From a virus, in IMG/VR virus record IMGVR_UViG_3300044448_003259: 31,321 nucleotides of DNA; one strand, given 5' to 3'. Of the stretch, positions 1 through 31,290 are shown piece after piece. A program made the position numbers and the translations under genes. How positions within the stretch are numbered: position 1 is the stretch's first letter; each line of letters opens with the position of its first letter. The notes below the pieces were generated by a model. The model ran no database searches. It was not told where the DNA came from and worked only from the letters and a program-made list of their open reading frames with translations.

Positions 1-96
1 TGTCATATTAAAGCTGAAATGGACAAAGAGTTTAATCAGCAATTAAAAGAACAAAATTTAATTAAACACAATCAATATGAAGAAAATAAGTATTAA
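1..96 (+). CDS. HNH endonuclease, 3' fragment (duplicate of 31195..31290, created by the terminal overlap)
   Basis: Reads ...CHIKAEMDKEFNQQLKEQNLIKHNQYEENKY* in the same frame as ORF 31015..31290. Stop TAA at 94-96. Confidence 0.85.
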   Translation, partial: CHIKAEMDKEFNQQLKEQNLIKHNQYEENKY

Positions 97-127
97 TAAA
101 GTTAAGCCTAATAAAGAAAACCCAAGA
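1..127. repeat. Terminal direct repeat, copy 1 (identical to 31195..31321). Assembly overlap indicating a closed circular contig with a 31,194 bp unit.
   Basis: Compared by eye: tgtcatattaaagctgaaatgg...aaagaaaacccaaga occurs at both ends. 127 nt is also a commonly used maximum assembler k-mer length. Confidence 0.95.
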
Positions 128-655
128 ATAATAAAGGGAGATAAGTTTAAAAAATTAGTAAAAAGTATTAAGGAGTTTCCTGAAATGCTAAAAATAAGAC
201 CTATTGTGGTTAATAAAGATTGTGTAGTGTTGGGTGGCAATATGAGATTAAGAGCTTGTATTGACGCTGGATTGAAAGAGGTTTATATAAAAGAGGTAGA
301 TTTATCAGAAGAAAAGCAGAAAGAGTTTATAATTAAAGATAACAACAGCTTTGGGGAGTGGGATTGGGACTTATTAGCTAATGATTGGAACAGCAAAGAG
401 CTAAACGAGTGGGGTATTGATGTTTGGGTTAATGAAATTGAAGATGACGAAAAAGAAATTGACGAAGATGCTTTTGCTTCACAAATAGATACCTATATAA
501 ACGCACAAATAAAGCAGATAGTATTGTATTATAATAGCGAGGAGTACGAAAACGCACTATTAAATTTTGAAAAGGTTAGAGAAAAAGAAAACCTAAACGA
601 CAATACAGAAGTGTTTGACTTTTTAATAAACAAATATTTTAAAAATGAATTATAA
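77..655 (+). CDS. ParB N-terminal domain (ParB/Srx-like nuclease/NTPase fold) protein
   Basis: KPNKENPRII...KLVKSIKEFPEMLKIRPIVV...VVLGGNMRLRAC matches the ParB N-terminal pattern (NPR box, GG-x-R-x-x-A). GEWDWDLL...ELNEWGID is a tail common in phage ParB-like proteins. Overlaps the HNH stop and the next gene. Confidence 0.75.
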   Translation: MKKISINKVKPNKENPRIIKGDKFKKLVKSIKEFPEMLKIRPIVVNKDCVVLGGNMRLRACIDAGLKEVYIKEVDLSEEKQKEFIIKDNNSFGEWDWDLLANDWNSKELNEWGIDVWVNEIEDDEKEIDEDAFASQIDTYINAQIKQIVLYYNSEEYENALLNFEKVREKENLNDNTEVFDFLINKYFKNEL

Positions 656-1391
656 AATAGCAATACCCTCATATAAAAGACCTGAAACTATAAAAAGAAA
701 AACATTAAAAATAATAGATGAGCATAATATTAATATTGATAGGGTTACAATATTTGTTGCAGATAAAGAAGAAGAACAAGAATACATAAATAGTTTAGGA
801 AGCAAATATAAAATAGTAGTGGGTGTTCCAACAATAGGAGAGCAAAGAAACTTTATAGAAAAATATTATAAAGAGGGAGAAAAGGTTTTAATGTTTGATG
901 ATGATATTGACGGAGTGTTTGTAAAAGACGGAAGCAAAATAAAGCCTATTGAAAATTTAGAAGAAGAATTTATAATAAAAGGATTTAATGAGTGCGAAAA
1001 AACAAACGCTAAATTTTTTGGATTGTATGCAGCAGCTAATGGTTATTTTATGAAACATAGAATATACAACAAGCTATGCTATATTTGTGGTGGTGTTTTT
1101 GGTGTAATAATACAGCACGATCCTTTTTTAAACAGAAGAACAAATCACGGAGAAGATTACGAATATAGTATAAGGCAGTATATAAAAAACAAGATTGTTG
1201 TAAGATTTGATTATATAACTATTAAATCTAAATTTTTTAAAGAGGAGGGTGGGCTACAAACAATAAGAACAAAAAAATACATATTTGATAGTATAAACAA
1301 GATTTATAGTATGTTTCCTAGCTATTGCACAATGTATATAAGAAAAAGTTCAGGTAACGCTGAATTAAGATTAAGAGATAAAAGCTTATGA
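645..1391 (+). CDS. GT-A fold glycosyltransferase, TET-associated glycosyltransferase (TAGT)-like
   Basis: N-terminal IAIPSYKRPE strand and a DxD motif (LMFDDDIDG). ATGA-coupled to the TET/JBP gene directly downstream. Confidence 0.6.
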   Translation: MNYKIAIPSYKRPETIKRKTLKIIDEHNINIDRVTIFVADKEEEQEYINSLGSKYKIVVGVPTIGEQRNFIEKYYKEGEKVLMFDDDIDGVFVKDGSKIKPIENLEEEFIIKGFNECEKTNAKFFGLYAAANGYFMKHRIYNKLCYICGGVFGVIIQHDPFLNRRTNHGEDYEYSIRQYIKNKIVVRFDYITIKSKFFKEEGGLQTIRTKKYIFDSINKIYSMFPSYCTMYIRKSSGNAELRLRDKSL

Positions 1392-2260
1392 AAAAAATAA
1401 AAGTAACAAGAAAAGAAATAAATAAGAAAGATTTTGTTAGAAGAACAGCACACCTATCTGATGTAACAAGACATATTAAGGAAGATTGTATTATTTGCAT
1501 AGATGATAAGCCTATATTACTATATAAAACATTAGAAGAAAAACCAAACAAAATAAGAAAAGCAGTTCAAAATGTTAAATACGGAGTAGGTAAAAGAGTA
1601 CACGGTTTAAAAAGTCAAAGTGCAGTATTCGGATATAAACCAAGACAAGAGAATAGGCAAGATTATTGTAGTGCTTCTGCTATGGGAAAAAACCACCCAA
1701 AAGAACACTACCTAATAAGCCAATATGCACAAGAAATAGAAAAACATTATAAAGAACATTTTCCTGAAACATACGATAACCACCAAAAAGAAGTAAAGGA
1801 AAGAGTAAAAGAGGAGTGGGTAATAAAAGATACGGTATTTACAAGTGGAATAGTAAACAAAAACAATCAGCTTAATTATCACTTTGATAGTGGAAACTTT
1901 AAAAATGTATATAGCAATATGCTGGTATTTAAAGGTAATGTAAAGGGTGGTCATTTAGTTATACCTGAAATAGATATATCATTAGAAGTAGCAGATAGTT
2001 CCGTAACAATATTTGACGGACAAGATTTACTACACGGAGTTAGTCCTATAAAATATGTACACAAAGATTCTTATAGGTATTCAATAGTGTATTACTCATT
2101 ACAAAGAATGTGGCAGTGCCTTGAGATTAATGAAGAAATAGGTAGAATAAGAAAGGTTAAAATGGAAAGAGAAAAGAAAAGAATAGACCCTAAACACTTA
2201 GACGAATTAAATAAGAGGTATGTTGAAGCTAAAAATTATAAAAAAGATATAGAAAAATGA
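1388..2260 (+). CDS. TET/JBP-family 2-oxoglutarate/Fe(II) dioxygenase (predicted 5-methylcytosine oxidase)
   Basis: HxD (LNYHFDSGNF), distal His (DLLHGVSPI) and a 2OG-binding Arg in YRYSIVYYS, in the order and spacing of the double-stranded beta-helix. The R-x-S-x-V-x-Y stretch resembles the TET/JBP signature. Confidence 0.8.
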   Translation: MKKIKVTRKEINKKDFVRRTAHLSDVTRHIKEDCIICIDDKPILLYKTLEEKPNKIRKAVQNVKYGVGKRVHGLKSQSAVFGYKPRQENRQDYCSASAMGKNHPKEHYLISQYAQEIEKHYKEHFPETYDNHQKEVKERVKEEWVIKDTVFTSGIVNKNNQLNYHFDSGNFKNVYSNMLVFKGNVKGGHLVIPEIDISLEVADSSVTIFDGQDLLHGVSPIKYVHKDSYRYSIVYYSLQRMWQCLEINEEIGRIRKVKMEREKKRIDPKHLDELNKRYVEAKNYKKDIEK

Positions 2261-2634
2261 ACAAAACCGAACACACTAAAAAAGCACTATTAGACGCTTT
2301 AGAAAAATCATTAGGAATAGTAACTACTGCTTGTAAGAAAGTAGGAATAGGTAGAACAACTTATTATGATTGGTATAACAACGATCCTGATTTTAAAGAA
2401 AAGGTTGATGACCTTAAAAATGTTGCGTTAGATTTTGCAGAAAGCCAATTACATAAACAAATACAAGATAACTCTACCTCTGCAACTATATTCTACTTAA
2501 AAACACAGGGTAAAAAAAGGGGGTATATAGAAAGGCAAGAGGTAGATTTGTCTAGTGGTAACGAACAAATTAATAAAATAGAAATTGAAATCGTTGAATC
2601 TAAAGGGAACGGTAGTTCTACAAAAGAATCTTAA
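2257..2634 (+). CDS. terS: Terminase small subunit (HTH type)
   Basis: ALLDALEKSLGIVTTACKKVGIGRTTYYDWYNNDPDFKEKV...ATIFYLKTQGKKRGY is the typical N-terminal HTH small-terminase pattern. Lies immediately upstream of terL and overlaps it. Confidence 0.75.
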   Translation: MNKTEHTKKALLDALEKSLGIVTTACKKVGIGRTTYYDWYNNDPDFKEKVDDLKNVALDFAESQLHKQIQDNSTSATIFYLKTQGKKRGYIERQEVDLSSGNEQINKIEIEIVESKGNGSSTKES

Positions 2635-3754
2635 TGCTGGTACAAGAGTTGTAGTTAATCAAGGGGGAACAAGAAGCAGTAAAACATATTCATTAGCTCA
2701 ATTAATAATACTTAAAGCATTACAATCAAAGGGAAAGGTATATACCATTTGTCGTAAAACCCTACCTGCCTTAAAGGGTACCGCCTATCGTGATGTAATG
2801 TCTATATTAGAGGATCTTAATTTATACAATCCTGACAATCATAACAAGTCAGAATTAACATACACCTTAAATAATAATGAAATTGAGTTTATTTCAGTAG
2901 ATCAACCACAAAAAATTAGAGGTAGAAAGCGTAATGTGTTATGGCTTAATGAAGCAAATGAGTTTAGCTTTGAGGACTGGGTACAGCTCTCATTAAGAAC
3001 AACGGAAAATATCTATTTAGATTTTAACCCCTCAGATCCTTATTCGTGGATTTATGATAATGTAATAAATAGAGAAGATTGCACCTTTATTAAATCAACC
3101 TATTTAGACAATCCCTTTCTTCCACAAGAAACAATTAAAGAAATAGAAAGGTTAAAGGATTTAGATAGTAATTATTGGCAGATATATGGACTAGGAGATA
3201 TGGCTCAACCTACCGAAACTATATTTAGGCAGTTTAATCTATGCAATAATATACCAGCGGAATCAACGCTAATAGCTTTGGGTATGGACTTTGGCTATTC
3301 TAATGATCCTACCGCAATAGCAGAAGTATATAAGCTAAATGATAATTTGTATATAAATGAATTGGTATATAGCAAGGGATTGACAAATCAAGATATAGCA
3401 CAAAAATTAAGAGAGCTCAATATAACAAGACAAACAGAAATAATAGCAGATAGTGCTGAGCCTAAATCAATAGAAGAAATACATAGATTAGGGTTTAATA
3501 TAAAGGGAGCCAAGAAAGGGGCAGATAGTATTAATATGGGTATTGATGTATTAAGAAGATATAAGCTACATATTACAAAAAATAGCACAAATACCGTTAA
3601 TGAGTTTAAGTATTATAAGTGGCTTGTAGATAAGAATGGTAGGGTAATAAACAAACCTGCTACAAACCAATTAGACCACCTTATAGACGCTATTAGGTAT
3701 GTGGCTTTAAATAAGCTTACTACTAATTATAGTGGTAAATATTATATATTATGA
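2585..3754 (+). CDS. terL: Terminase large subunit
   Basis: Walker A-like NQGGTRSSKTYS and Walker B-like VLWLNEANEF. Nuclease motifs MDFGYSNDPTA and LDHLIDAIRYV. The frame opens only at 2582 and has no in-frame ATG, so the start must be TTG (2585 or 2594), overlapping terS by about 50 nt. Confidence 0.85.
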   Translation: MKSLNLKGTVVLQKNLNAGTRVVVNQGGTRSSKTYSLAQLIILKALQSKGKVYTICRKTLPALKGTAYRDVMSILEDLNLYNPDNHNKSELTYTLNNNEIEFISVDQPQKIRGRKRNVLWLNEANEFSFEDWVQLSLRTTENIYLDFNPSDPYSWIYDNVINREDCTFIKSTYLDNPFLPQETIKEIERLKDLDSNYWQIYGLGDMAQPTETIFRQFNLCNNIPAESTLIALGMDFGYSNDPTAIAEVYKLNDNLYINELVYSKGLTNQDIAQKLRELNITRQTEIIADSAEPKSIEEIHRLGFNIKGAKKGADSINMGIDVLRRYKLHITKNSTNTVNEFKYYKWLVDKNGRVINKPATNQLDHLIDAIRYVALNKLTTNYSGKYYIL

Positions 3755-3781
3755 ACAAAAACACTAAAACTATATTTATAT
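3750..3781 (+). promoter_or_regulatory. Bipartite promoter-like motif, copy C: TATGAACAAAA-N11-ATATTTATAT
   Basis: Same two boxes and the same 11-nt spacer as at 12719, 13770 and 16325. Ends 3 nt before the ATG at 3785. Confidence 0.5.
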
Positions 3782-3784
3782 AAA

Positions 3785-4411
3785 ATGAAGTACGAAGAAA
3801 TAGAATTAAAGATACCTACCAGCTGGAATGATATAACAATAGGAATGTATCAGCAATTTGTTAAGATTAACAAAAAGAAGTTTGATACTGATGAAGAAAG
3901 AACAGCAGAATTAATTTGTGCCTTATGTGAAGTAAAGCCAAGTCAATTAGAAAGATTTAAGTATAAGGATCTTAAATACATAGTAAAGAAAATATCTAAA
4001 TTAATGGATAGCGAGATAGATGATAAAACGCTAGTAAAGAAAGTAGATTTTAAAGGAAATAAATTAGGCTTAATACCAAACTTTAGCTCTATTACTTTAG
4101 GTGAGTTTGTTGATATAGAAAGCTATTGTAAAGATTCTTATAAAAACCTACACAAATTGATGAGTGTAATATATAGACCTATTGTAAAAGAAAAAGGGGA
4201 AAAGTATAATATTGAAGAATACAAGCCTGATGAGTTTAAAGCAGATGAGTATTTAGATTTTCCAATAGTAGCGTCAATGAGTTCATTGAGTTTTTTTTTT
4301 CGTTTAGGGAAACAACTCAAACTCGCTTTGCTCAAATATTCGAGCAGGGAAGTGGAGAGGAAGATCAAAAAGCTGAAAAGATTACAGAGAAGTGGGGTTG
4401 GTATAATGTGA
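3785..4411 (+). CDS. Hypothetical morphogenesis protein, 0-frame product. Candidate frameshift gene (tail-assembly-chaperone-like architecture).
   Basis: 208-aa ORF. A T10 run at 4291-4300 lies 37 codons before its stop. See the -1 frame extension feature. Confidence 0.6.
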   Translation: MKYEEIELKIPTSWNDITIGMYQQFVKINKKKFDTDEERTAELICALCEVKPSQLERFKYKDLKYIVKKISKLMDSEIDDKTLVKKVDFKGNKLGLIPNFSSITLGEFVDIESYCKDSYKNLHKLMSVIYRPIVKEKGEKYNIEEYKPDEFKADEYLDFPIVASMSSLSFFFRLGKQLKLALLKYSSREVERKIKKLKRLQRSGVGIM

Positions 4412-4551
4412 TATTTGCTTTGTGTAATGAGAATATTTTGAATGTAGAGCAAGTAACAAGATTAGAATTATATTTAGTTTTAACTTATATGTGCTATAAA
4501 CAAGATATGCAAAGCCAACAAAATAATAATTATAGTAAATACAAAGAATGA
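4291..4551 (+). other. T10 slippery run (4291-4300) plus an open -1 frame extension (4300..4551) that ends in an ATGA overlap with the next gene
   Basis: My translation of the -1 frame: FFFSFRETTQTRFAQIFEQGSGEEDQKAEKITEKWGWYNVIFALCNENILNVEQVTRLELYLVLTYMCYKQDMQSQQNNNYSKYKE*. No stops from 4249 to 4551. TGA at 4549-4551 overlaps the ATG at 4548. Confidence 0.6.
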
Positions 4552-5060
4552 TAACATACAAAAACATATCAGATATATTTCAGGATATAGCCACAAATCA
4601 TTATTTAATAAACTCCTATCATAATGGTTTTTTAGACGAGGTTGATGTAGATAAGATGAATGAAAGTAACTTTCCTATACTATATGTAGAGCCCTCAACA
4701 TCAACAATAGATCAAGGTGTGCTAACCTATTCTTGTAATGTTTATGTATTAAATTTATTAAAAGAAGATTTAAGCAATAGGGAGATAGTTTGGTCTAGTA
4801 CATTAGAAATAACGCAAGACATAATTGCAGAGTTTAAACAAAATCTATCACTACAAACATCAGGCGGTGATAGTGGTAAAAAATATAGCTATGCAGAAAA
4901 CGAAATAGTATTAGAGCTTCCAATAAGCACGGATCCTATTACTGCAAGATTTGCTAATATATTAACAGGCTGGGTTTCAGGAATCTCATTACAGGTTAAT
5001 AACGCTAATTCACTTTGCAACGCTCCTATTGAGCCAAGCGACAAAGACGCTAATACATAA
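4548..5060 (+). CDS. Hypothetical virion (neck/tail) protein
   Basis: 170-aa ORF, translationally coupled on both sides within the structural block. No motif recognised. Confidence 0.55.
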   Translation: MITYKNISDIFQDIATNHYLINSYHNGFLDEVDVDKMNESNFPILYVEPSTSTIDQGVLTYSCNVYVLNLLKEDLSNREIVWSSTLEITQDIIAEFKQNLSLQTSGGDSGKKYSYAENEIVLELPISTDPITARFANILTGWVSGISLQVNNANSLCNAPIEPSDKDANT

Positions 5061-5668
5061 TGCAGATAAAAATTAGAAACGCAAGAACAGGTAAATATAG
5101 TAAAGGACCAACTACTAATTCAATAAAAGCCTTTAAGGATTTTGGTACAGAAATAGTAACAAAGGGTAAAAAAATATTAAAGAAAAGTGAAAAGAAAGGA
5201 TCAGGAACATTAATAAATGACTATAAATATAAGTTTAAAAAGACAGGTAGCTCAATGGAGTTAACTTTTGAATTTGGTGGAGCTAAAGATTATTGGAAGT
5301 TTATAGATCAAGGTGTTGTTGGGGTAGGTGGCTATAAAGGAAGTGGTAATGCAAGGGGTAGAGGAAGTAAATATAAATTCAAATATGACAACCCAGCTGG
5401 AAAGTTAGTTGAAGCTTTAGAGGGTTGGATAAGTAGTAGGAGTATTCCTTTAAAAAATAAAATGACCATAACTCAAACAGCTTTTGCTATGGGTTATTCA
5501 ATTAAAAGGAGAGGTTTAGAAAGAACTTTATTTTTTACTAAACCAATGGATAAAATGTATAAGAAAATGCAAAAAAAGGTATTAAAAGCCTATGAGAAAG
5601 ATTTTCAAAAGGTTGTTGATAAAATGGATTCAGTAATAGCAGTATTAAAAGATAAATCAGAACTTTAA
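5060..5668 (+). CDS. Hypothetical virion protein, possibly HK97 gp10-like neck/tail-completion protein
   Basis: GSGTLINDYKYKFKKTGSSMELTFEFGGAKDYWKFIDQGVVG loosely resembles the TG-x-L...YA-x-fvE-x-G pattern of gp10-family proteins. Confidence 0.35.
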   Translation: MQIKIRNARTGKYSKGPTTNSIKAFKDFGTEIVTKGKKILKKSEKKGSGTLINDYKYKFKKTGSSMELTFEFGGAKDYWKFIDQGVVGVGGYKGSGNARGRGSKYKFKYDNPAGKLVEALEGWISSRSIPLKNKMTITQTAFAMGYSIKRRGLERTLFFTKPMDKMYKKMQKKVLKAYEKDFQKVVDKMDSVIAVLKDKSEL

Positions 5669-5671
5669 AAA

Positions 5672-7114
5672 ATGGCGTATACAATAGAACAAAAACCAAA
5701 CCAATTAGCAGGAGCAAATAGCCCTATGGTTTATGTATTAAAAGAAAGTGACGGAGCAATAACAGGAGCTAGTAAATTTAGATATATAGCACAAGTATAT
5801 ATAAGCACAACAGATGAAAGCACTTGGGTGGAAAAGGCTAAAATAAAAATATATAAAAATGCAGCAGGTGTTGGTATAGTAGATATACATAAAATAGTAA
5901 GAACATTTTTAGAAACACAAACACAAGTATCAATAGAGGATCCGTCAGGCACATTTACTGAATCAACAGGAATAACAGGTAATATACACTGTGCAGGTAT
6001 AGCTGTTGCCGATAGTCCCTTTTCATCTAATACAAGTCAATTAGTAGGAGTTAAATTAGTTGGTGGTTATGAAAAATCTACAAGTGCCACAGCAGCTCCA
6101 ACAGAAACATTAAATCAAGCCAATACAATAATATACTCAATACCTGCAACTACTCCATTTACATCAACAGCTTCTAATGTAGGGGGCTTAGATAAAGATG
6201 GAACTAACAATCCTTTAACTAATTATATTCCTAGTAGTAGCTCAAAGAAGTTTTTAACTAATTCTCCTACCGTTCAATTTGTGAGGGGTGGAGATGACGC
6301 AGCAGATAATGTAGACCACGCTACTGTTGGCTTTATACAAGATGGTAATAGTGTTTTAATAACTGACGGAGATCCTATTGTTAGAATATATGTACAATAC
6401 CACCAAGCAGATGGAACAAGTATAGGTTTGCACCATTTTGTTAATGAGCTAAATGGTGGTGGAATAGCTACTGCTGATGATGTGAGAAATAGCTTGTTAT
6501 ACTTTGGTTGTGGTACTAAAAATTTAGAAACCCAAAGTGATGTTACAGCAGCAAGACCTAGTAATAATGACGGTTGGGTTTATTATAGAGTGTGGGGAGC
6601 AAATGGAGATAATTCACAACAAGAAACAACCTATTATTATTTTTATAAATATGGAGCTAATGCTGGTGTAAACAATAGACACCAAAGTTGCACAAGATAT
6701 AACAACATTAGATTAGCTTGGGTAAATAGATTAGGCTGTTGGGACTATATGAATTTTAGAGGAAAGTCAGTTGAGGGTGTTGATATTAAAAGAAGCGAAA
6801 TGGAAAGTGTGCCCGGAACTTGGAATAATGCAACCTTTGCTTATGAAAATCAAGAGGGGGGAAGAAAGATTTTATTTACAGAAGCTAAAAGAAAATTAAA
6901 TATTAACTCTGATTGGCTAAATGAAGATGAGGCAGTATGGTTAGAGGAATTATTTACCTCTACTCAAGTACATCAAATACAAGACGATAGTGTTGTTTAT
7001 CCTGTTATAGTAACAAACAAATCATATACTAAAAAAACCAGCGTAAACAATAAGATTAAAATACAATACAAAATAACATTAGAATACGCAAACAAAGTAA
7101 GAACTAATAGCTGA
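5672..7114 (+). CDS. Tail structural protein (distal-tail/baseplate candidate)
   Basis: 480-aa ORF directly upstream of, and coupled (TGATG) to, the 1140-aa tail protein. No catalytic motif. Confidence 0.45.
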   Translation: MAYTIEQKPNQLAGANSPMVYVLKESDGAITGASKFRYIAQVYISTTDESTWVEKAKIKIYKNAAGVGIVDIHKIVRTFLETQTQVSIEDPSGTFTESTGITGNIHCAGIAVADSPFSSNTSQLVGVKLVGGYEKSTSATAAPTETLNQANTIIYSIPATTPFTSTASNVGGLDKDGTNNPLTNYIPSSSSKKFLTNSPTVQFVRGGDDAADNVDHATVGFIQDGNSVLITDGDPIVRIYVQYHQADGTSIGLHHFVNELNGGGIATADDVRNSLLYFGCGTKNLETQSDVTAARPSNNDGWVYYRVWGANGDNSQQETTYYYFYKYGANAGVNNRHQSCTRYNNIRLAWVNRLGCWDYMNFRGKSVEGVDIKRSEMESVPGTWNNATFAYENQEGGRKILFTEAKRKLNINSDWLNEDEAVWLEELFTSTQVHQIQDDSVVYPVIVTNKSYTKKTSVNNKIKIQYKITLEYANKVRTNS

Positions 7115-10100: not shown

Positions 10101-10536
10101 AGTTAAAGTTTCTTTTAAAGGATATGATTCTAATATTTTAACCTTTCCGTCTTTTACTATGAACTATATCACTGTAAAATTATATGGTACTGTGATGTCA
10201 GGAGCTAATAATAGAGATGTTGGTTATTTTGAGTATGATACAATTATAACAAAAAGAGGCGACACTAATGATTATGTAGGAAGTTCAGGGGGAACATTTT
10301 TAAAGCAAAATAAAGATACAAGCTTTAGTGCCCCAACGGTAGATATAACAAATTTTGACGGACAGAATTGGTCGCCTATTATAAGGGGTGGGGCTGACGA
10401 GGACGTTTTTTGGGTAGCAGAAGTTAAAATTACTAGCACACCTGTAAATATACCAACTTTAAGAAGAAGGGCAGCTATTTATCAAAACGCAGATGATATA
10501 TTAACGCAGGATCTAAATTATTTATTATGGAATTAG
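7114..10536 (+). CDS. Large tail protein (tail tip / host-recognition candidate)
   Basis: Largest ORF (1140 aa), Gly/Thr/Asn-rich, with a Cys-containing C-terminal third. Its size and position among tail genes suggest the role. Confidence 0.5.
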   Translation: MDIRLLAYRRNTTSEGTYDLTQFELDLQKAPNVVANYNWINLKEPDKRKSSFSQTLKLPFSNRNNKFFENYFDVNLDTLVYNAKIKFNAILYVDSVPQLKGFIQLKAVYLNARVYQVVLFGATADFFTDIKSAKLKDAFKTTSNTDPDVQLIDGQLDHFLTPANIVKSWTSGVTLAGGGSDDDILYPIIDYGHTSVPYSSAMFWTPDDLYPTGIGAPTDSADFYGAVRAGDLKPAIRIQRLVHIIAQKAGYQIKSAFMGIDDTAETPITDTQFFSRLFMTLANQFQRVQTLFNSVEGSQVPFVGFSTSLSVFTYPTSMPCVLLANDPPFPDNLPYTNFNELCYPNLATFTTAYDPNNLFTVATNDPADSFGPLGYRPRVTFPADFDGDDVTLSEGDFPVKVTATIQIPEQTVQGTDLGFCYVMIGWDEGGIASGYGNTDYQDFLLNPGTHTVEWTYNMNCTPNNIYEMFIELEANDTNQSSVPDNNTWQPRVTALSIESVNGGVNTLMGGGENGLVSIHHNLPDMTQSDFIRDLVNRFNLVIQTDADNEKLLLIEPYQDFIDAGSIQYWTDKLDISKEVVIKSTNELQSKTLKFSDLLDKDILNERYNKLYDVVYGQYEKLQLSDFAKKDFKNFSVFSPFIAQGIPYWTNGGINGAIPSADVALAYLFKAEVGQQATATDLKPKMFYYSGTPINVQGSNPNTSNNYSFHIYSNGYLTNNDAHPSDDNNGSANKFPLCTQYNLDNLSTGVTSATKVLNWTYYGNNFTTGFTFNFFGDVYTDHGFYHDYWAQYINEIYSDEARIMECYLNLTPEDIRTFSGNGFQNTYFIKNTLWRIISISNYAVGKNKSTKVVLLKVLQKLSNDCGNIPTISQTGQITWVDAGTGASVASVTNSCCEEQNENWTFVQTNATTGVGQCYAIGGDSGDTTLVDLVSTEGEIIIGTDETFTGGDGNGDTSGMNMSMLPTIQNNFGIQTSQGQGKSLTYFCECTTYDNSTPVKVSFKGYDSNILTFPSFTMNYITVKLYGTVMSGANNRDVGYFEYDTIITKRGDTNDYVGSSGGTFLKQNKDTSFSAPTVDITNFDGQNWSPIIRGGADEDVFWVAEVKITSTPVNIPTLRRRAAIYQNADDILTQDLNYLLWN

Positions 10537-25039: not shown

Positions 25040-25048
25040 ATTTTTTTT

Positions 25049-25777: not shown

Positions 25778-25779
25778 TA

Positions 25780-25851
25780 TTAAAATAAATTAAAAATTAT
25801 ACTTCCTATTATAAATCCTATTAAAATAAATATTATAGTTATCTTATCCAT
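25780..25851 (-). CDS. 23-aa hydrophobic micro-ORF
   Basis: My translation: MDKITIIFILIGFIIGSIIFNLF*. It overlaps the stop of the upstream ORF. Confidence 0.3.
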   Translation of the reverse strand: MDKITIIFILIGFIIGSIIFNLF

Positions 25852-25990: not shown

Positions 25991-25994
25991 TACT

Positions 25995-27292: not shown

Positions 27293-28054
27293 ATGAAATC
27301 AATATTAGCGTCAAGTTCTTTCTTTATTATTAATAAAAACCTGTTATATTTTGTTGGGCTTGACGCAAGTATTGTTTTATCAGATCTTGTACAAAAGAGG
27401 GCATACTTTAAACAAACCCACCAATTAAACGGTGGGTTTTTTTATAACACCTCTGAATCAATTAGCTGTAGTACTTCGCTTTCTTATTATCAAATTAAAC
27501 AAGCTTTGTCAATCTTACAAAGAAACGATTTTGTAGAGGTTAAGTTAAAAGGAATACCGGCAAAAAACCATTTTAAAATATTTGATGACAAAATATTAAA
27601 ATACCTAAATACCTGTAATGAAAAAATTGTAATACAGGAATGCGAAAATTTTAAATTAAATAATAATAAAGAAATAAGAATAAAAAATAATAACAAGAGT
27701 AGCTCTCGCAAAGAAAGGTTTTTAAATGATTTAAAAGAATTAGAGCCTAGAGATTATATAGAGGACTTTGTTGATTATTGGACAGAAGAAAACAATTCAG
27801 GTAAACAAAGGTGGGAATTAGAAAAAACTTGGAATACCAGCTTAAGATATAAGCGTTGGTGTAGAAATCAAAAGAATTTTAGCAACGGAAGTAGTGCAAA
27901 TAATATGCCTGACTTTTTAGATAGTGCATACTTAAATAGAATTAGAGAGGATCAATCACAAGTAAACAAGTTTTACAAACACCTTGTAGATAATTGTCAG
28001 TATGAAAAAATAGAAACTTTAACAGGCCACATTAAATACAGAAAGAAAAGATGA
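27293..28054 (+). CDS. Putative replication organiser / DNA-binding protein (N-terminal winged-helix-like)
   Basis: FFIINKNLLYFVGLDASIVLSDLVQKRAYF...SESISCSTSLSYYQIKQALSILQRNDFVEV resembles the N-terminal wHTH of DnaD/phage replication initiator-like proteins. Weak call. Confidence 0.3.
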   Translation: MKSILASSSFFIINKNLLYFVGLDASIVLSDLVQKRAYFKQTHQLNGGFFYNTSESISCSTSLSYYQIKQALSILQRNDFVEVKLKGIPAKNHFKIFDDKILKYLNTCNEKIVIQECENFKLNNNKEIRIKNNNKSSSRKERFLNDLKELEPRDYIEDFVDYWTEENNSGKQRWELEKTWNTSLRYKRWCRNQKNFSNGSSANNMPDFLDSAYLNRIREDQSQVNKFYKHLVDNCQYEKIETLTGHIKYRKKR

Positions 28055-28650
28055 AAAATTGGTTAAATAATAGAAATAAAAACACAGTTTATACAACACT
28101 AGGGGCAAGTAGTCATAGTAAAGATGATAGGGAACAATATGATTATTATGCAACAAACCCTAAATGTGTAGAAGATCTATTTGAAAGGGAAGTTTTTAGT
28201 GGAAATATTTGGGAGTGTGCTTGTGGGGAGGGTCACTTATCTAAAAGAATGTTAAAAATTGGTAGTCACTATGGAATAAATGTTTATAGCTCGGATATAA
28301 TAGATCGTGGCTATGGTGATGTGTTAGATTTTTTATCTATAGATGTGCAAGAGTGGTTAGGTGATATAGTAACCAATCCACCTTATAAATACGCACAGGA
28401 TTTTGTAGAAAAATCATTAAAAATAATACCTAATGGAAATAAGGTTGCTATGTTTTTAAAGCTAACATTTTTAGAGGGGCAAAAAAGAAAATTATTATTT
28501 AAACACAACCCTCCCAAAATAGTATATGTTTATAGTAAAAGACAAGAATGTGCTAAAAATGGAGAATTTAAAGGAACAAGTGCTGTTGCATATTGTTGGT
28601 ATATTTGGGAAAAAGGCTTTAATGGTGACACAATTATTAAGTGGATATGA
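28051..28650 (+). CDS. SAM-dependent DNA amino-methyltransferase (NPPY; N6-adenine or N4-cytosine)
   Basis: YYATNP, motif I-like WECACGEGHLS and motif IV DIVTNPPY. Confidence 0.7.
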   Translation: MKNWLNNRNKNTVYTTLGASSHSKDDREQYDYYATNPKCVEDLFEREVFSGNIWECACGEGHLSKRMLKIGSHYGINVYSSDIIDRGYGDVLDFLSIDVQEWLGDIVTNPPYKYAQDFVEKSLKIIPNGNKVAMFLKLTFLEGQKRKLLFKHNPPKIVYVYSKRQECAKNGEFKGTSAVAYCWYIWEKGFNGDTIIKWI

Positions 28651-28787: not shown

Positions 28788-28885
28788 TAGAGGTTTCATT
28801 AATAAGTTTTTTAACAGGGTTGGCTATGGGTTTGTATGTTTCCAGCTGGCTAATTAAGTGGATAGATAAAAAAACAAAAAAATGA
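28784..28885 (+). CDS. 33-aa single-TM micro-protein
   Basis: My translation: MIEVSLISFLTGLAMGLYVSSWLIKWIDKKTKK*. ATGA overlaps at both ends. Confidence 0.4.
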   Translation: MIEVSLISFLTGLAMGLYVSSWLIKWIDKKTKK

Positions 28886-29523
28886 AAATACTTAATTTAT
28901 ACGCTTGTCTAGGTGGAAATAGATACAAATGGAATGAAGTAAAAGATGATATAGAAGTTACTGCTGTTGAAAAAGATTTAGAATTAGCTAAATTATATAA
29001 ACAAAGGTTTCCTAATGATAAAGTTGTATTAGGTGACGCTCACGAATACTTACTACATAATTATAAAAACTTTGATTTTATTTGGAGTAGCCCTCCTTGT
29101 CCTACTCATAGTAGAGCAAGATTTGCTAGGAGAAATACAACCACTTCATTATATCCTGATATGACATTATACCAAGAAATAATACTTTTAAAACACTATT
29201 TTAAAGGTAAATATTGTGTTGAAAATGTAATGCCTTTTTATGATAGTTTAATTCCAGGAAAGCAAAGAGGCAGACACTTGTATTGGACAAATTTTAGGCT
29301 ACCAAGTGATTTAAAAGAAAGAAAATGCTCTATAATGAAAGGTAAAAATGAAGTTAAAAGGTGGTCAGAATTTCACGAATACGACTTTAATAAATATAAA
29401 GGAAAACAAAGGTTAGATAAAATAGCTAGAAATTTAGTAGATTATGAAGCTGGAAAAGCAATATTTCAAACGCTAATAGACATTAAACAAAACAAAGTAG
29501 AACAAATAGGACTTTTTAAATGA
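28882..29523 (+). CDS. DNA (cytosine-5) methyltransferase, minimal form with an almost absent target-recognition domain
   Basis: Motif I LNLYACLGGN, motif IV SSPPCPTHS (catalytic Pro-Cys), motif VI CVENV and motif VIII QRGRHLYW. Only about 85 aa follow motif VIII. Confidence 0.75.
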   Translation: MKILNLYACLGGNRYKWNEVKDDIEVTAVEKDLELAKLYKQRFPNDKVVLGDAHEYLLHNYKNFDFIWSSPPCPTHSRARFARRNTTTSLYPDMTLYQEIILLKHYFKGKYCVENVMPFYDSLIPGKQRGRHLYWTNFRLPSDLKERKCSIMKGKNEVKRWSEFHEYDFNKYKGKQRLDKIARNLVDYEAGKAIFQTLIDIKQNKVEQIGLFK

Positions 29524-30666: not shown

Positions 30667-31018
30667 AGGACTAGGAGATAGTATAGCTAAAATAACTAAA
30701 GCAACAGGAATAGATAAAATAGCTAAAAAAGTATTAGGAGATGATTGTGGTTGTGAAGAACGCAGAAAGAAACTAAATCAAATGTTTCCGTATGTTTCTT
30801 CAATTAGACAATTTACAGAAGATGAAATAAAAATCTATGAAGAAATAGTACCAATAATAGAAAAAAACCAAAGGCTAAATGCAGAAGAAAAAACTATAAT
30901 AAACGCTTTATATAAGTCAGTGTTTGGTAGTAACCCAGCGTGGAAAAGTTGCTCTCCTTGTAATAAAAAAATAATGGACAATCTAAAAAAGGTATATGAT
31001 AAAAGCTGTAAAATATGA
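30650..31018 (+). CDS. Hypothetical Cys-containing protein
   Basis: 122-aa ORF. GLGDSIAKITKATGIDKIAKKVLGDDCGCEERRKKLNQMFPY, plus a later CSPC. Confidence 0.5.
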   Translation: MKNKSKGLGDSIAKITKATGIDKIAKKVLGDDCGCEERRKKLNQMFPYVSSIRQFTEDEIKIYEEIVPIIEKNQRLNAEEKTIINALYKSVFGSNPAWKSCSPCNKKIMDNLKKVYDKSCKI

Positions 31019-31290
31019 AAAAGCACACTAAAATATATATGGACTTTCACGATTATTGTAAAGAGGACTTTATACCCTGTGAATATTGTGGAACAACTGC
31101 TGTTGATATTCACCACATTTCACCAAGAGGAATAGGTGGGGATCCGTTAGGGCATAAGAATCAGATAGAAAATTTAATAGCTCTATGTAGAAGCTGTCAT
31201 ATTAAAGCTGAAATGGACAAAGAGTTTAATCAGCAATTAAAAGAACAAAATTTAATTAAACACAATCAATATGAAGAAAATAAGTATTAA
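31015..31290 (+). CDS. HNH endonuclease
   Basis: CEYCG...DIHHISPRG...NLIALCRSCHIKAE is a classic HNH (CxxC...HH...N...CxxCH). Confidence 0.85.
   Translation: MKKHTKIYMDFHDYCKEDFIPCEYCGTTAVDIHHISPRGIGGDPLGHKNQIENLIALCRSCHIKAEMDKEFNQQLKEQNLIKHNQYEENKY

What the first reader, a model, noticed from the sequence alone, without database searches (positions are those of the whole stretch)
77..2260. ParB-like / glycosyltransferase / TET-JBP dioxygenase cassette between HNH and terminase: predicted 5mC -> 5hmC -> glycosyl-5hmC DNA hypermodification
Seen in sequence: three genes (77..655, 645..1391, 1388..2260) run into terS with start-stop overlaps, two of them ATGA.
- 1388..2260 carries a 2OG/Fe(II) triad in TET/JBP style: LNYHFDSGNF (HxD), DLLHGVSPI (distal His) and YRYSIVYYS (Arg-x-Ser on the last strand).
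- 645..1391 has GT-A hallmarks (IAIPSYKRPE, LMFDDDIDG).
- A C5 cytosine methyltransferase that would make the 5mC substrate lies at 28882..29523, only about 3 kb upstream once the circle is closed.

Established knowledge: TET/JBP enzymes oxidise 5-methylpyrimidines in DNA. Comparative genomics has linked phage TET/JBP genes to C5-MTases and a dedicated glycosyltransferase family, and phage TETs have been shown to act on 5mC.

Inference: this phage decorates its cytosines after replication (MTase, then TET, then sugar transfer) to evade restriction or CRISPR.

Unexplained parts:
- the ParB-like protein as the first, translationally coupled member;
- the cassette sitting between the HNH and terS, so it would be expressed with packaging;
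- the physical split from the methyltransferase;
- the identity of the sugar.
Basis: partly seen in the sequence, partly recalled or inferred. Interest (0 to 1): 0.85.

Follow-up and report, generated by a model that had tools for sequence, protein, structure and literature searches.

The report
ParB-activated thymine hydroxylase plus glycosyltransferase cassette
A marine phage carries, fused to its DNA-packaging genes, a three-gene module (ParB-like activator, sugar transferase, TET/JBP dioxygenase) of a recently described kind that most likely hydroxylates and then glycosylates thymine, not methyl-cytosine as first proposed, to disguise the phage DNA.

Summary
ORFs 77-655, 645-1391 and 1388-2260 are ParB_N, TAGT (PF20691) and Tet_JBP (PF12851) proteins, each above Pfam's curated cut-off, and they run into terS/terL through overlapping start and stop codons. 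A 127-bp terminal repeat closes the circle.

It is a post-replicative DNA hypermodification cassette, but the substrate is most likely thymine (T to 5hmU to glycosyl-5hmU, a base-J-like product), not 5mC.

- The 'unexplained' ParB matches the ParB-dependent T-dioxygenase subclass of O'Toole et al. (PNAS 2026). It has an NTP-binding domain, a linker and a C-terminal domain but no DNA-binding domain, and its closest folds are M. xanthus and C. crescentus ParB.
- ParB lies directly upstream of the dioxygenase in 36-37 of 37 evaluable related loci.
- The 213-aa C5-methyltransferase-like gene is in 0 of 39 related loci.
- Sister phages show a double dissociation: some have the cassette without the methyltransferase, others the methyltransferase without the cassette.
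- Cultured mycobacteriophages carry ParB-dioxygenase-TAGT next to the terminase, with no annotated methyltransferase in the one genome checked in full.

Substrate, sugar and ParB dependence are inferred, not shown. I file it as a new member of a known kind, of moderate interest.

The parts
31015..31290 (+). HNH endonuclease (91 aa). Its last 20 nt overlap the ParB start once the terminal repeat is collapsed. It is the upstream boundary of the slot that holds the cassette.
   Evidence: Pfam HNH 1.2e-8. Overlap read from the sequence. Same HNH-ParB adjacency in L003, L004 and L006.
77..655 (+). ParB-like protein (192 aa), the predicted activator of the dioxygenase. NTP-binding domain about 1-90 (N15, R17, S30, GGNMR 53-57), helix-helix 97-111, acidic low-confidence linker about 112-150, C-terminal helical hairpin 154-188. 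No HTH DNA-binding domain.
   Evidence: Pfam ParB_N. ParB-like PHROGs 1e-19 to 1e-24. Conservation in 57 homologues. AF2 pLDDT 83. Foldseek top hits MxParB 7BNR/7BNK and CcParB 7BM8. The C-terminal domain is found only in loci with the dioxygenase.
645..1391 (+). TET-associated glycosyltransferase (TAGT, GT-A type, 248 aa) with N-terminal PSxxR motif (S9, R12) and DxD (D85-D86). Predicted to put a sugar on the hydroxymethyl base.
   Evidence: PF20691 3.4e-13 over model positions 1-205 of 205. phrog_25200 5e-32 and phrog_842 3e-17. Conserved residues. 31% identical to gp3 of mycobacteriophage Indlovu.
1388..2260 (+). TET/JBP-family 5-methylpyrimidine dioxygenase (290 aa). Fe(II) ligands H165, D167 and H216; 2OG-binding R230; conserved C244 followed by a conserved two-helix C-terminal extension (247-289).
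   Evidence: PF12851 2.3e-14. Invariant residues. AF2 pLDDT 92.9, pTM 0.85. Foldseek top 26 hits are NgTET1, CcTet, CMD1 and hTET2, E 4e-12 to 1e-9.
2257..2634 (+). Terminase small subunit, start overlapping the dioxygenase stop (ATGA).
   Evidence: phrog_309 1.5e-11 and other terS PHROGs. Junction read.
2585..3754 (+). Terminase large subunit. The start codon is uncertain (TTG 2585 or the next in-frame start codon at 2594).
   Evidence: Terminase_3 3e-30 and Terminase_3C 2.9e-18. Candidate starts.
28882..29523 (+). Compact C5-cytosine-methyltransferase-like protein (213 aa). Probably NOT part of the cassette; an accessory gene in an independent variable slot. Motifs I (GGNR), IV (SPPCPTHS, Cys73), VI (ENV), VIII-like (RGRHLYW) and X-like (RNLV), with only about 40 residues where a target-recognition domain should be.
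   Evidence: PF00145 1.5e-9 but only model positions 1-95 of 324. Conserved family of about 212 aa on 120 viral contigs. Its profile matches DNMT2 over motifs I-VI only. Absent from all related dioxygenase loci.
28051..28650 (+). Amino-methyltransferase (NPPY motif, N6-A or N4-C type, 199 aa). It lies in the same variable slot as the C5-MT-like gene and is likewise absent from cassette-bearing relatives.
   Evidence: phrog_799 6e-66. NPPY read. Slot empty in L004, L006 and L106-L109.
1..127 (.). 127-bp terminal direct repeat (identical to 31195-31321). It shows the window is a circular or terminally redundant assembly.
   Evidence: Exact match found.

Best explanation
The cassette is a ParB-dependent thymine hypermodification module.

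Proposed mechanism:
1. [quoted passage not shown]
2. It does so only, or mainly, when activated by the co-translated ParB-like protein. ParB's N-terminal NTP-binding fold and dioxygenase-specific C-terminal domain hold or position the enzyme on duplex DNA.
3. The GT-A glycosyltransferase (TAGT) then transfers a sugar from a host nucleotide-sugar onto the new hydroxyl, giving a base-J-like glycosyl-5hmU at a subset of T sites.
4. Expression is coupled to terS/terL through overlapping start and stop codons, so the DNA is decorated as it is being packaged.
5. The likely benefit is protection from restriction and CRISPR nucleases in the next host.

The C5-MT-like gene 1.7 kb upstream of ParB is an independent accessory gene, probably ordinary anti-restriction methylation, and is not the supplier of the substrate.

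Shown here: gene identities, folds, catalytic residues, operon structure, linkage statistics.
Inferred: thymine as substrate, ParB dependence, direct glycosylation of the base, identity of the sugar, biological role.
For: Family membership: Pfam hits above curated cut-offs. Invariant HxD/H/R. Confident TET fold.

ParB matches the activator described in PMC13229309:
- It has NBD, helix-helix, disordered linker and CTD, with no DNA-binding domain.
- Its best structural matches are MxParB and CcParB, as in that paper.
- Conserved N15, R17, S30 and R57 sit one residue off the ParB176 residues N14, R16, S29 and R56.
- The dioxygenase has a conserved C-terminal extension after the last conserved Cys, a feature the paper reports only for ParB-dependent enzymes.

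Linkage:
- ParB lies directly upstream of the dioxygenase in 21/21 evaluable IMG/VR loci, 4/4 near-complete relatives and 11-12/12 loci from cellular genomes of many phyla.
- The window-type ParB C-terminal domain is in 0/78 loci without the dioxygenase, although 13 of those carry a close N-terminal-domain homologue.

No C5-MT requirement:
- 0/39 related loci have the MTase-like family, and no C5-MT motifs were found in 151 neighbouring genes.
- Cassette and MTase doubly dissociate on one phage backbone.
- Mycobacteriophage Indlovu has ParB-dioxygenase-TAGT-deacetylase-kinase-terminase and no annotated methyltransferase in 95 genes.
- Phage Prince has ParB-'thymidine hydroxylase'-AADT-like glycosylase-kinase-terminase, which is thymidine-hypermodification machinery.

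Other support:
- The window has no thymidylate-synthase-like hydroxymethylase, so there is no pre-replicative route.
- Published surveys conclude that most phage 5mYOX pathways lack a C5-MT and probably make 5hmU.
Against: - No biochemical evidence exists for this protein or its close relatives.
- I could not place it in the published clades because no reference sequences were available.
- The window itself does encode a C5-MT-like protein with an intact catalytic Cys only about 3 kb upstream of the dioxygenase. Characterised phage T-dioxygenases can also oxidise 5mC in vitro, so some 5hmC cannot be excluded in this particular phage.
- O'Toole et al. link ParB-dependent enzymes mainly to kinases, AADTs and GATases, and link GTs mainly to the ParB-independent clade.
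- The only biochemically characterised PF20691 member adds a second glucose to glucosyl-5hmC. Solitary TAGTs are uncharacterised.
- Glycosyl-5hmU made by a phage dioxygenase plus GT is not reported in the searched literature.
- Many related loci are near-duplicates, so the linkage counts overstate the number of independent observations.
Confidence: 0.65

Rival explanations
1. First reader's model. The 213-aa C5-MT-like enzyme methylates cytosines, the dioxygenase converts 5mC to 5hmC, and the TAGT glycosylates 5hmC, as in the clade A/B phage TET pathways of Burke et al. 2021.
For: - A C5-MT-like gene with motifs I, IV (catalytic Cys), VI, VIII-like and X-like lies about 3 kb upstream on the closed circle.
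- Phage TETs acting on 5mC and GTs acting on 5hmC are experimentally established.
- The characterised PF20691 enzyme works in a 5hmC pathway.
Against: - The MTase-like family is absent from 39/39 related dioxygenase loci. The closest relatives keep the cassette with an empty MTase slot.
- 78 of 80 MTase-family loci have no dioxygenase.
- Seven genes separate the MTase-like gene from the dioxygenase, against at most 5 in Burke's criterion.
- The MTase-like protein lacks a recognisable TRD and matches only the first third of PF00145. Burke et al. found C5-MTs with disrupted motifs VIII-X to be inactive or nearly so, and their partner TETs inactive on 5mC.
- This model leaves ParB unexplained.
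Confidence: 0.12
2. Dual-substrate variant. In this particular phage the ParB-activated dioxygenase oxidises both T and the 5mC laid down by the accessory C5-MT-like enzyme, so both pyrimidines end up glycosylated.
For: - 5mYOX97 and 5mYOX176 oxidise both T and 5mC in vitro, and TET89 showed dual activity in vivo.
- The window is one of the few genomes that combine both modules.
Against: - Activity of the compact MTase-like protein is unknown, and it has no evident target-recognition domain.
- The co-occurrence looks like chance assortment of two independent variable slots.
Confidence: 0.13
3. ParB is not an enzyme activator but a packaging or partition factor (a pac-site-binding or nuclease-type 'ParB-like nuclease domain' protein working with HNH and terminase), and merely sits next to a self-sufficient dioxygenase/GT pair.
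For: - Sister phages without the dioxygenase still keep a ParB-N protein immediately upstream of terS.
- PHROG labels include 'nuclease'.
- ParB-independent phage T-dioxygenases exist.
Against: - The window-type C-terminal domain co-occurs strictly with the dioxygenase. It remains detectable when the N-terminal domain has diverged beyond recognition.
- There is no HTH domain and no ParA partner.
- ParB dependence has been shown experimentally for this architecture.
- In sister phages the ParB-N module is fused to a DNA methyltransferase, which points to DNA modification rather than packaging.
Confidence: 0.05
4. The pathway stops at, or diverges after, 5hmU. The TAGT acts on another acceptor (for example a sugar added by a host enzyme, or a non-DNA target), or the dioxygenase oxidises further to 5fU/5caU.
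For: - The only characterised TAGT extends an existing sugar.
- Phage T-dioxygenases oxidise iteratively in vitro.
- In relative L108 the TAGT reading frame is split while ParB and the dioxygenase stay intact.
Against: - The TAGT is translationally coupled between ParB and the dioxygenase and is conserved at 77-92% identity in the close relatives.
- A TAGT-like gene adjoins the dioxygenase in 27 of 39 related loci, often with further sugar-tailoring enzymes such as UDP-glucose dehydrogenase, PIG-L deacetylase or a second GT.
- No other GT is present in the window.
Confidence: 0.05

Closest known systems
ParB-dependent phage thymine dioxygenases (5mYOX176/ParB176, 5mYOX185/ParB185; clade C1, called 'clade E' in the preprint; O'Toole et al., PNAS 2026, PMC13229309)
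   Same: - A TET/JBP-fold dioxygenase of about 290-300 aa with a C-terminal extension.
- It is encoded next to a roughly 200-aa ParB homologue that has an NTP-binding domain, a linker and a C-terminal domain but no DNA-binding domain.
- MxParB and CcParB are the closest folds.
- The NTP-site residues are conserved.
- It is frequently adjacent to the terminase.
- Its relatives have no obligatory C5-MT.
   Different: - Membership in the published clade could not be tested, because no reference sequences were available.
- The tailoring enzyme here is a TAGT glycosyltransferase inserted between ParB and the dioxygenase. The paper links this subclass to kinases, AADTs and GATases, and it did not use PF20691 to label GTs.
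- Activity here is untested.
Mycobacteriophage cluster B left-arm modules (Indlovu, Acadian and Baee: ParB-like / dioxygenase / TAGT-type GT / deacetylase / kinase / terminase; Prince and Nigel: ParB-like / 'thymidine hydroxylase' / AADT-like glycosylase / kinase / terminase)
   Same: - The same ParB-dioxygenase(-TAGT) set sits directly upstream of the terminase.
- The dioxygenase is 35-36% identical and the GT 30-32% identical.
- Indlovu has no annotated methyltransferase.
   Different: - Gene order differs: the GT comes after the dioxygenase, not between ParB and it.
- Extra deacetylase and kinase genes are present.
- The host is a high-GC actinobacterium.
- The ParB is too divergent to match the window-family profile.
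- I found no report of the DNA modification of these phages.
Phage C5-MT/TET/GT pathways making glycosylated 5hmC (clades A/B; Burke et al. 2021, PMC8256090; Pyle et al. 2023/2024)
   Same: Post-replicative order of reactions (oxidise a 5-methylpyrimidine, then glycosylate), TET/JBP fold, associated GTs, and occasional ParB and terminase neighbours.
   Different: - Those systems have a full-length C5-MT within five genes that co-evolves with the TET.
- Here the MTase-like gene is compact, lies seven genes away, sits in a separate variable slot, and is missing from all relatives.
Base J biosynthesis in kinetoplastids (JBP1/JBP2 thymidine hydroxylases plus the base-J glucosyltransferase)
   Same: The predicted chemistry matches: T in DNA to 5hmU to glucosyl-5hmU, by a TET/JBP dioxygenase followed by a glycosyltransferase.
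   Different: - JBPs carry their own DNA-binding or SWI2/SNF2 domains and need no ParB.
- The eukaryotic glucosyltransferase was not compared with this TAGT here.
- The eukaryotic role is transcription control and epigenetics rather than evasion of host nucleases.
T2/T6 beta-glucosyl-HMC-alpha-glucosyltransferase (the characterised member of PF20691)
   Same: Same Pfam family, GT-A fold and DxD motif. It acts on modified phage DNA.
   Different: The T-even enzyme adds a second glucose to a glucose already on 5hmC, which is itself made before replication. Here the TAGT is solitary and must act directly on the hydroxymethyl base.
Phage ParB-CTPase-fold fusions to N6/N4 DNA methyltransferases (PMC12704722)
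   Same: The same ParB N-terminal module (up to 66% identical over residues 1-119) is fused to a methyltransferase in sister phages, in L025 in the very same HNH-terS slot.
   Different: In the window the ParB module is a separate protein with a dioxygenase-specific C-terminal domain rather than a covalent fusion.

Membership tests
TET/JBP 5-methylpyrimidine dioxygenases (PF12851) | Profile match above the curated threshold | tested here: met
   53.4 bits against a cut-off of 34.9, residues 88-237.
TET/JBP 5-methylpyrimidine dioxygenases (PF12851) | HxD...H iron triad and Arg that binds 2-oxoglutarate, conserved in the family | tested here: met
   H165, D167, H216 and R230 are invariant in 56 sequences. 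They lie on strands 162-165, 216-218 and 229-236 of the model. Inter-residue distances could not be measured because coordinates are not returned.
TET/JBP 5-methylpyrimidine dioxygenases (PF12851) | Double-stranded beta-helix fold closest to solved TET structures | tested here: met
   pLDDT 92.9. The top 26 Foldseek hits are NgTET1, CcTet, CMD1 and hTET2 (E 3.7e-12 to 1.3e-9), ahead of AlkB and FTO.
TET/JBP 5-methylpyrimidine dioxygenases (PF12851) | Oxidation of a 5-methylpyrimidine in DNA | not testable with these tools
   Needs enzymology or nucleoside mass spectrometry.
ParB-dependent T-dioxygenase subclass (PMC13229309) | Co-localised ParB homologue | tested here: met
   ParB is the first gene of the overlapping operon. 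It lies directly upstream of the dioxygenase in 36-37 of 37 evaluable related loci.
ParB-dependent T-dioxygenase subclass (PMC13229309) | ParB with an N-terminal NTP-binding domain and a C-terminal domain but no DNA-binding domain, with MxParB and CcParB as the closest folds | tested here: met
   AF2 model, Foldseek, only ParB_N in Pfam, and TIGR00180 at 22 bits against a cut-off of 58.
ParB-dependent T-dioxygenase subclass (PMC13229309) | Conserved NTP-site residues (ParB176 N14, R16, S29, R56) | tested here: met
   N15, R17 and S30 are invariant and R57 at least 90% conserved. The correspondence rests on position and motif, not on an alignment with ParB176.
ParB-dependent T-dioxygenase subclass (PMC13229309) | C-terminal extension of the dioxygenase beyond the last residue conserved in both subclasses (a Cys) | tested here: met
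   C244 is invariant and is followed by conserved residues E250, R253, R255, K258, E262 and R265 and helices 247-265 and 268-289. Equivalence of C244 to C280 of 5mYOX176 is inferred.
ParB-dependent T-dioxygenase subclass (PMC13229309) | No immediately neighbouring C5-MT | tested here: inconclusive
   No C5-MT in 39 related loci. The window itself has a C5-MT-like gene seven genes upstream of the dioxygenase.
ParB-dependent T-dioxygenase subclass (PMC13229309) | Phylogenetic placement in clade C1 together with the reference enzymes | not testable with these tools
   Reference sequences are not held in the papers' text or supplements.
ParB-dependent T-dioxygenase subclass (PMC13229309) | T to 5hmU activity on dsDNA that requires the cognate ParB | not testable with these tools
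   Needs co-expression or in vitro assays.
Phage C5-MT/TET 5mC-dioxygenase pathway (Burke 2021, clades A/B) | [quoted passage not shown] | tested here: not met
   Seven genes intervene: VRR-NUC, orf29861, orf30139, orf30650, HNH, ParB and GT.
Phage C5-MT/TET 5mC-dioxygenase pathway (Burke 2021, clades A/B) | C5-MT/TET pairing conserved among relatives (co-phylogeny) | tested here: not met
   0/39 dioxygenase loci have the MTase family, and 2/80 MTase loci have a (distant) dioxygenase. Sister phages show a double dissociation.
Phage C5-MT/TET 5mC-dioxygenase pathway (Burke 2021, clades A/B) | C5-MT with complete motifs I-X and a target-recognition domain | tested here: inconclusive
   Motifs I, IV, VI, VIII-like and X-like are conserved, but only about 40 residues separate VIII and X. 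Pfam and PDB profiles align motifs I-VI only.
TET-associated glycosyltransferase (PF20691) | Profile match above the curated threshold, full length | tested here: met
   50.5 bits against a cut-off of 27.5, model positions 1-205 of 205.
TET-associated glycosyltransferase (PF20691) | GT-A DxD motif conserved | tested here: met
   D86 invariant and D85 nearly invariant, plus S9, R12 and D171, across homologues of 17-92% identity.
TET-associated glycosyltransferase (PF20691) | Acceptor (base or sugar) and donor sugar | not testable with these tools
   The only characterised member uses glucosyl-5hmC as acceptor.
Canonical chromosome or plasmid partition ParB | HTH DNA-binding domain, a ParA partner and a parS site | tested here: not met
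   No HTH in Pfam or in the model. TIGR00180 is far below its cut-off. No ParA-type ATPase among the window ORFs scanned. parS was not searched for.

The most novel reading that the evidence does not exclude
A marine Bacteroidota (probably Flavobacteriales) phage makes a true bacterial-virus counterpart of base J: glycosyl-5hmU, laid down after replication by a ParB-activated thymine dioxygenase and a solitary TAGT that glycosylates the base directly. That would be a new acceptor specificity for PF20691.

In addition, the ParB N-terminal NTPase module would be a general, exchangeable 'loader' encoded at the terminase-proximal slot. Through interchangeable C-terminal domains or fusions (the dioxygenase-specific CTD here, an N4/N6 methyltransferase in sister phages), it would couple different DNA-modifying enzymes to phage DNA at the time of packaging.
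Probability: 0.3. Interest if true: 0.65.

Novelty: new member of a known kind. Interest (0 to 1): 0.4.

Why it matters
If the prediction holds, this compact 31-kb phage and its many marine relatives offer a minimal three-gene route to glycosylated thymine in DNA. Such a base-J-like modification has not been reported for any phage in the literature I could search, although comparative work since 2013 has anticipated it.

It would show that ParB-dependent thymine dioxygenases feed glycosylation as well as the amino-acid and polyamine pathways so far linked to them. It would also give the uncharacterised 'solitary' TAGT enzymes a function. The strict co-occurrence of a particular ParB C-terminal domain with the dioxygenase offers a concrete handle on how ParB activates the enzyme.

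In practical terms, such DNA would resist many restriction enzymes and may distort sequencing and metagenomic recovery of an abundant marine phage group. The correction also matters for annotation:
- A nearby C5-methyltransferase should not be taken as proof of a 5mC pathway.
- Many database records still label this dioxygenase 'queuine tRNA-ribosyltransferase'.

Tried and rejected
- **Nucleotide match to cultured phages.** Megablast of window 1-8000 found nothing. terL is only 37-40% identical to Bacteroides and Flavobacterium phages.
- **Direct comparison with published reference enzymes** (5mYOX43, 89, 97, 176, 185; ParB176). No sequences are held for either PNAS paper or the preprint; the supplements contain only activity and Foldseek tables. 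Clade placement therefore rests on features and context.
- **Using fold to tell T from 5mC specificity.** Rejected. The only solved relatives are 5mC enzymes, the published T-dioxygenases hit the same structures, and the papers state that selectivity determinants are unknown.
- **PDB sequence searches.** For the dioxygenase, only CMD1 at E 0.13. For the GT, nothing meaningful.
- **Promoter and terminator scan of 1-4000.** 21 promoter-like sites against 21.8 expected, and 1 terminator against 1.0 expected. Uninformative, so operon structure rests on the overlapping codons.
- **A possible third methyltransferase (phrog_1530).** It turned out to be the prohead protease 12753-13766, a family-label artefact.
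- **The PHROG label 'queuine tRNA-ribosyltransferase' for the dioxygenase (phrog_6059).** Rejected as a legacy misannotation. Pfam, fold and catalytic residues all say TET/JBP.
- **A pre-replicative pathway** (dUMP or dCMP hydroxymethylase). No such gene among the window's ORFs.
- **Canonical partition ParB.** Rejected: no HTH and no ParA.
- **My own early label 'portal?' for 5672-7114 was wrong.** The portal is 17366-19255.

Full report
**1. The observation**

They are followed by terS (2257-2634) and terL (2585-3754).

The junctions are as described. ParB and the GT overlap by 11 nt. GT/dioxygenase and dioxygenase/terS are ATGA overlaps.

The quoted motifs are present. In the dioxygenase they start at residues 162, 213 and 229, and in the GT at residues 5 and 82.

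Profile searches confirm all three assignments above Pfam's curated thresholds:

| Protein | Pfam family | Score | Cut-off |
|---|---|---|---|
| 77-655 | ParB_N | 28.0 bits | 26.3 |
| 645-1391 | TAGT (PF20691) | 50.5 bits | 27.5 |
| 1388-2260 | Tet_JBP (PF12851) | 53.4 bits | 34.9 |

The TAGT match covers the whole model. PHROGs agree, apart from a legacy label, 'queuine tRNA-ribosyltransferase', on the dioxygenase family.

The window's first 127 bases are identical to its last 127. It is therefore a circular or terminally redundant assembly of 31,194 unique bp. On the closed circle:
- The HNH gene overlaps the ParB start by 20 nt.
- The C5-MT-like gene ends 1.7 kb before ParB and 3.1 kb before the dioxygenase.

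**2. What the proteins are**

*Dioxygenase.* H165, D167, H216 and R230 are invariant in 56 homologues of 47-87% identity. So is C244, and a conserved basic/acidic tail follows it. The AlphaFold2 model is confident (pLDDT 92.9, pTM 0.85). It shows a jelly-roll core followed by two long C-terminal helices, 247-265 and 268-289. Its 26 best structural matches in the PDB are all TET-family enzymes: NgTET1, CcTet, CMD1 and human TET2, with E from 4e-12 to 1e-9. AlkB and FTO come next.

*ParB-like protein.* It has a confident N-terminal domain (1-90) and a short helix-helix element (97-111). A low-confidence acidic linker (about 112-150) leads to a confident C-terminal helical hairpin (154-188). No helix-turn-helix domain is present. 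Its best structural matches are M. xanthus ParB (7BNR, 7BNK) and C. crescentus ParB (7BM8). N15, P16, R17, S30 and the GGNM of the GGNMR box (53-57) are invariant, and R57 nearly so, in 57 homologues.

*Glycosyltransferase.* It keeps an N-terminal S9/R12 motif, the D85-D86 DxD motif, D171 and G202-G203 in homologues down to 17% identity.

**3. The literature explains the ParB**

O'Toole et al. [quoted passage not shown] One subclass requires a co-encoded ParB homologue. That ParB retains the NTP-binding domain and a C-terminal domain but lacks a DNA-binding domain.

- 5mYOX176 converts about 1% of T alone and about 35% with ParB176.
- ParB is needed specifically on duplex DNA.
- Their ParBs have MxParB and CcParB as closest folds. 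The architecture is NBD, a roughly 20-aa structured segment, a roughly 50-aa disordered linker, then the CTD. The model obtained here has the same architecture.
- The residues they mutated (N14, R16, S29, R56) sit one position off the conserved N15, R17, S30 and R57 here.
- They report a C-terminal extension only in ParB-dependent dioxygenases, beginning after a conserved Cys. The window protein has such an extension after C244.

I could not align against their proteins. No sequences are held for either paper or the preprint.

**4. Is the substrate 5mC or T? Evidence from relatives**

I collected three sets of related loci:
- 22 dioxygenase loci from IMG/VR, 40-90% identical.
- 4 near-complete relatives with precomputed Pfam annotation.
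- 13 loci from cellular genome assemblies of many phyla.

Local profile HMMs gave the following:

| Set | ParB directly upstream of dioxygenase | TAGT-like GT nearby | 212-aa MTase-like family |
|---|---|---|---|
| IMG/VR | 21/21 evaluable | 16/22 | 0/22 |
| Near-complete relatives | 4/4 | 4/4 | 0/4 |
| Cellular genomes | 11-12/12 evaluable | 7/13 | 0/13 |

Two controls looked for any other kind of C5-MT. A motif search over 151 neighbouring genes, and a relaxed profile search, found none. A Pfam census of 150 of those genes listed no DNA_methylase, but it shows only 25 of 56 families.

In the reverse direction, the MTase-like protein belongs to a conserved family on 120 viral contigs. Only 2 of the 80 fetched loci also hold a dioxygenase, and that one is distant at 23% identity.

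The clearest evidence is synteny on the same phage backbone:
- The slot between the orf27293 homologue and VRR-NUC is empty in L004, L006 and L106-L109. These carry ParB-GT-dioxygenase at 65-92% identity.
- That slot holds the MTase-like gene in L024, L025, L026 and L033.
- The HNH-terS slot of L025, L026, L027 and L033 has no GT or dioxygenase.
- In the four near-complete relatives no gene in about 19-21 kb has any DNA-methylase Pfam hit.

This is a double dissociation. The window happens to combine two independent accessory modules.

*Cultured phages tell the same story.*
- Mycobacteriophage Indlovu has ParB-like, dioxygenase, TAGT-type GT, deacetylase, kinase, terminase. None of its 95 genes is annotated as a methyltransferase.
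- Phage Prince has ParB-like, 'thymidine hydroxylase', AADT-like 'DNA glycosylase', kinase, terminase. That is thymidine-hypermodification machinery.

*Other points.*
- The window encodes no thymidylate-synthase-like hydroxymethylase, so the hydroxymethyl group must be made on the polymer.
- Published surveys reach the same general conclusion. Only about 6% of 5mYOX pathways co-occur with a C5-MT, and only 20-30% of GT+5mYOX contigs have a methyltransferase nearby.

**5. The MTase-like protein**

It conserves motif I (GGNR), motif IV (SPPCPxHS with the catalytic Cys), motif VI (ENV), a motif-VIII-like RGRHLYW and a motif-X-like RNLV. Only about 40 residues lie between VIII and X.

Pfam covers only model positions 1-95 of 324. 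A family profile aligns with DNMT2 structures over motifs I-VI only.

Burke et al. found that C5-MTs with disrupted motifs VIII-X were inactive or weak, and that their partner TETs did not oxidise 5mC. I cannot say whether this family is the same as theirs, or whether it is active.

Its neighbour 28051-28650 is an NPPY amino-methyltransferase. The simplest reading is that both are ordinary anti-restriction methylases.

**6. ParB modularity**

The N-terminal ParB module recurs in sister phages, up to 66% identical over residues 1-119, with different C-termini. It is fused to an N4/N6 methyltransferase in L025 (in the same HNH-terS slot) and in L037. It carries other small domains in L026, L027, L043 and L045. 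Such fusions are a known phage theme (PMC12704722).

The window-type C-terminal domain is found only next to the dioxygenase:
- It is in 21/21 evaluable IMG/VR loci.
- It is in 0/78 loci without a dioxygenase, although 13 of those have a close N-terminal homologue.
- It stays detectable where the N-terminal domain has diverged out of reach.

This fits the published need for the CTD and the cognate specificity of ParB-dioxygenase pairs. It argues against ParB being a mere packaging neighbour.

**7. Most likely mechanism**

Late in infection the HNH-ParB-GT-dioxygenase-terS-terL chain is translated as one overlapping unit.
1. ParB enables the dioxygenase to work on duplex phage DNA.
2. Selected thymines become 5hmU.
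3. The TAGT adds a sugar from a host nucleotide-sugar pool.
4. The decorated DNA is packaged.

Shown here: protein families, catalytic residues, folds, operon structure and linkage statistics. Inferred: thymine as substrate, ParB dependence, direct base glycosylation, the sugar, and the protective role.

Caveats:
- The only characterised PF20691 enzyme extends a sugar on 5hmC, and solitary TAGTs are uncharacterised.
- The published T-dioxygenases can also oxidise 5mC in vitro. Mixed modification in this particular phage cannot be excluded if the MTase-like enzyme is active.
- Many loci are near-duplicates, so the counts overstate independence. They do, however, span identities from 90% to 30% and hosts from several phyla.

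**8. Comparison with the known, and novelty**

This is a new member of the ParB-associated phage 5mYOX systems. TET/JBP-TAGT linkage was predicted by comparative genomics, and the family name records it. ParB and terminase neighbours were noted in 2021 and 2023. ParB dependence was demonstrated in 2025-2026.

Two aspects are less well covered:
- *The ParB + TAGT + dioxygenase trio.* O'Toole et al. tie the ParB-dependent subclass to kinases, AADTs and GATases, and tie GTs to the ParB-independent clade. Their GT annotation set did not include PF20691. Here a TAGT-like gene accompanies the ParB-linked dioxygenase in 27 of 39 loci.
- *The product.* I found no report of a glycosylated 5hmU made this way in a phage.

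The host is probably a marine member of the Bacteroidota:
- terL is nearest to Bacteroides and Flavobacterium phages.
- The best cellular-genome hit is on a Flavobacteriales MAG contig.
- Homologues are common in Tara Oceans data.

**9. Verdict**

- Observation: confirmed.
- Interpretation: partly supported. The kind of system is right, the base is probably wrong, and ParB is now explained.
- Confidence that this is a ParB/5mYOX/GT DNA hypermodification module: about 0.9.
- Confidence in the full statement with thymine as the native substrate: about 0.65.
- Interest: moderate (0.4). A specialist would recognise the system at once, but it is a compact and testable candidate for a phage base-J analogue.

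Noticed in passing
window 1-127 and 31195-31321: Exact 127-bp terminal direct repeat. The window is a circular or terminally redundant assembly of 31,194 unique bp. HNH (31015-31290) overlaps the ParB start by 20 nt across the junction.
   Followed up: yes
L025:6033-7178; L037:5460-6368; L026:11030-11509; L027:1115-1603; L043:2302-2892; L045:3922-4428: In sister phages without GT and dioxygenase, a ParB-N protein can still sit just upstream of terS (L025, L026, L027). In L025 (Pfam) and L037 (SPPY motif) it is fused to an N4/N6 DNA methyltransferase; in the others it carries other small C-terminal domains. The ParB N-terminal module looks like an exchangeable adaptor for DNA-modifying functions.
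   Followed up: partly
L108:9307-10004: In a relative whose dioxygenase is 87% identical, the TAGT reading frame is split into 34-aa and 188-aa ORFs, while ParB and the dioxygenase are intact. It is either a frameshifted pseudogene or an assembly error. The sister contig L109 has the intact 248-aa gene.
   Followed up: no
window 28051-29523: The NPPY amino-methyltransferase and the compact C5-MT-like gene form an accessory pair in a slot that holds only a 45-47-aa ORF in the closest relatives (L106-L109). The C5-MT-like family (about 212 aa, minimal or no target-recognition domain) is on 120 viral contigs, and its activity is unknown.
   Followed up: partly
window 12753-13766: The prohead protease (Peptidase_S78_2) also matches phrog_1530, which is labelled 'DNA methyltransferase'. 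This is a family-label artefact that could mislead automatic annotation.
   Followed up: yes
window 1388-2260 and many GenBank mycobacteriophage records: The dioxygenase family (phrog_6059) carries the label 'queuine tRNA-ribosyltransferase', and many mycobacteriophage gene-2 products are annotated that way, or as 'oxidoreductase' or 'hypothetical'. Only recent records say 'thymidine hydroxylase'.
   Followed up: partly
window 7114-10536: A 1,140-aa ORF in the structural region has no Pfam hit (E up to 0.001) and no PHROG hit (E up to 1e-5). The portal gene (17366-19255) lies unusually far downstream of the terminase.
   Followed up: no
window 24567-26816: A low-GC (0.23-0.28) block of small minus-strand ORFs, including a winged-helix HTH_39 protein, faces a plus-strand repressor-like gene (26592-26816, phrog_4583). 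It looks like a divergent early control region.
   Followed up: no
window 30139-30666: A 175-aa protein with a weak Sigma70_r2 match (E 0.06), conserved in the sister phages. It may be a phage sigma-like factor upstream of the late operon.
   Followed up: no
L059:1068-5982 and L060: One lineage combines the C5-MT-like gene, an N4/N6 MTase, a ParB with a different C-terminal domain, an FkbM-type methyltransferase and a distant dioxygenase (23% identical) just before terS. This is a different tailoring chemistry in the same position.
   Followed up: partly
L113 (Siphonobacter sp. BAB-5405, 102-kb contig) and L112: ParB-dioxygenase pairs 46-48% identical to the window's occur inside long contigs of Bacteroidota genomes, presumably in prophages. 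L113 comes from a cultured isolate in which the modification could be tested.
   Followed up: no
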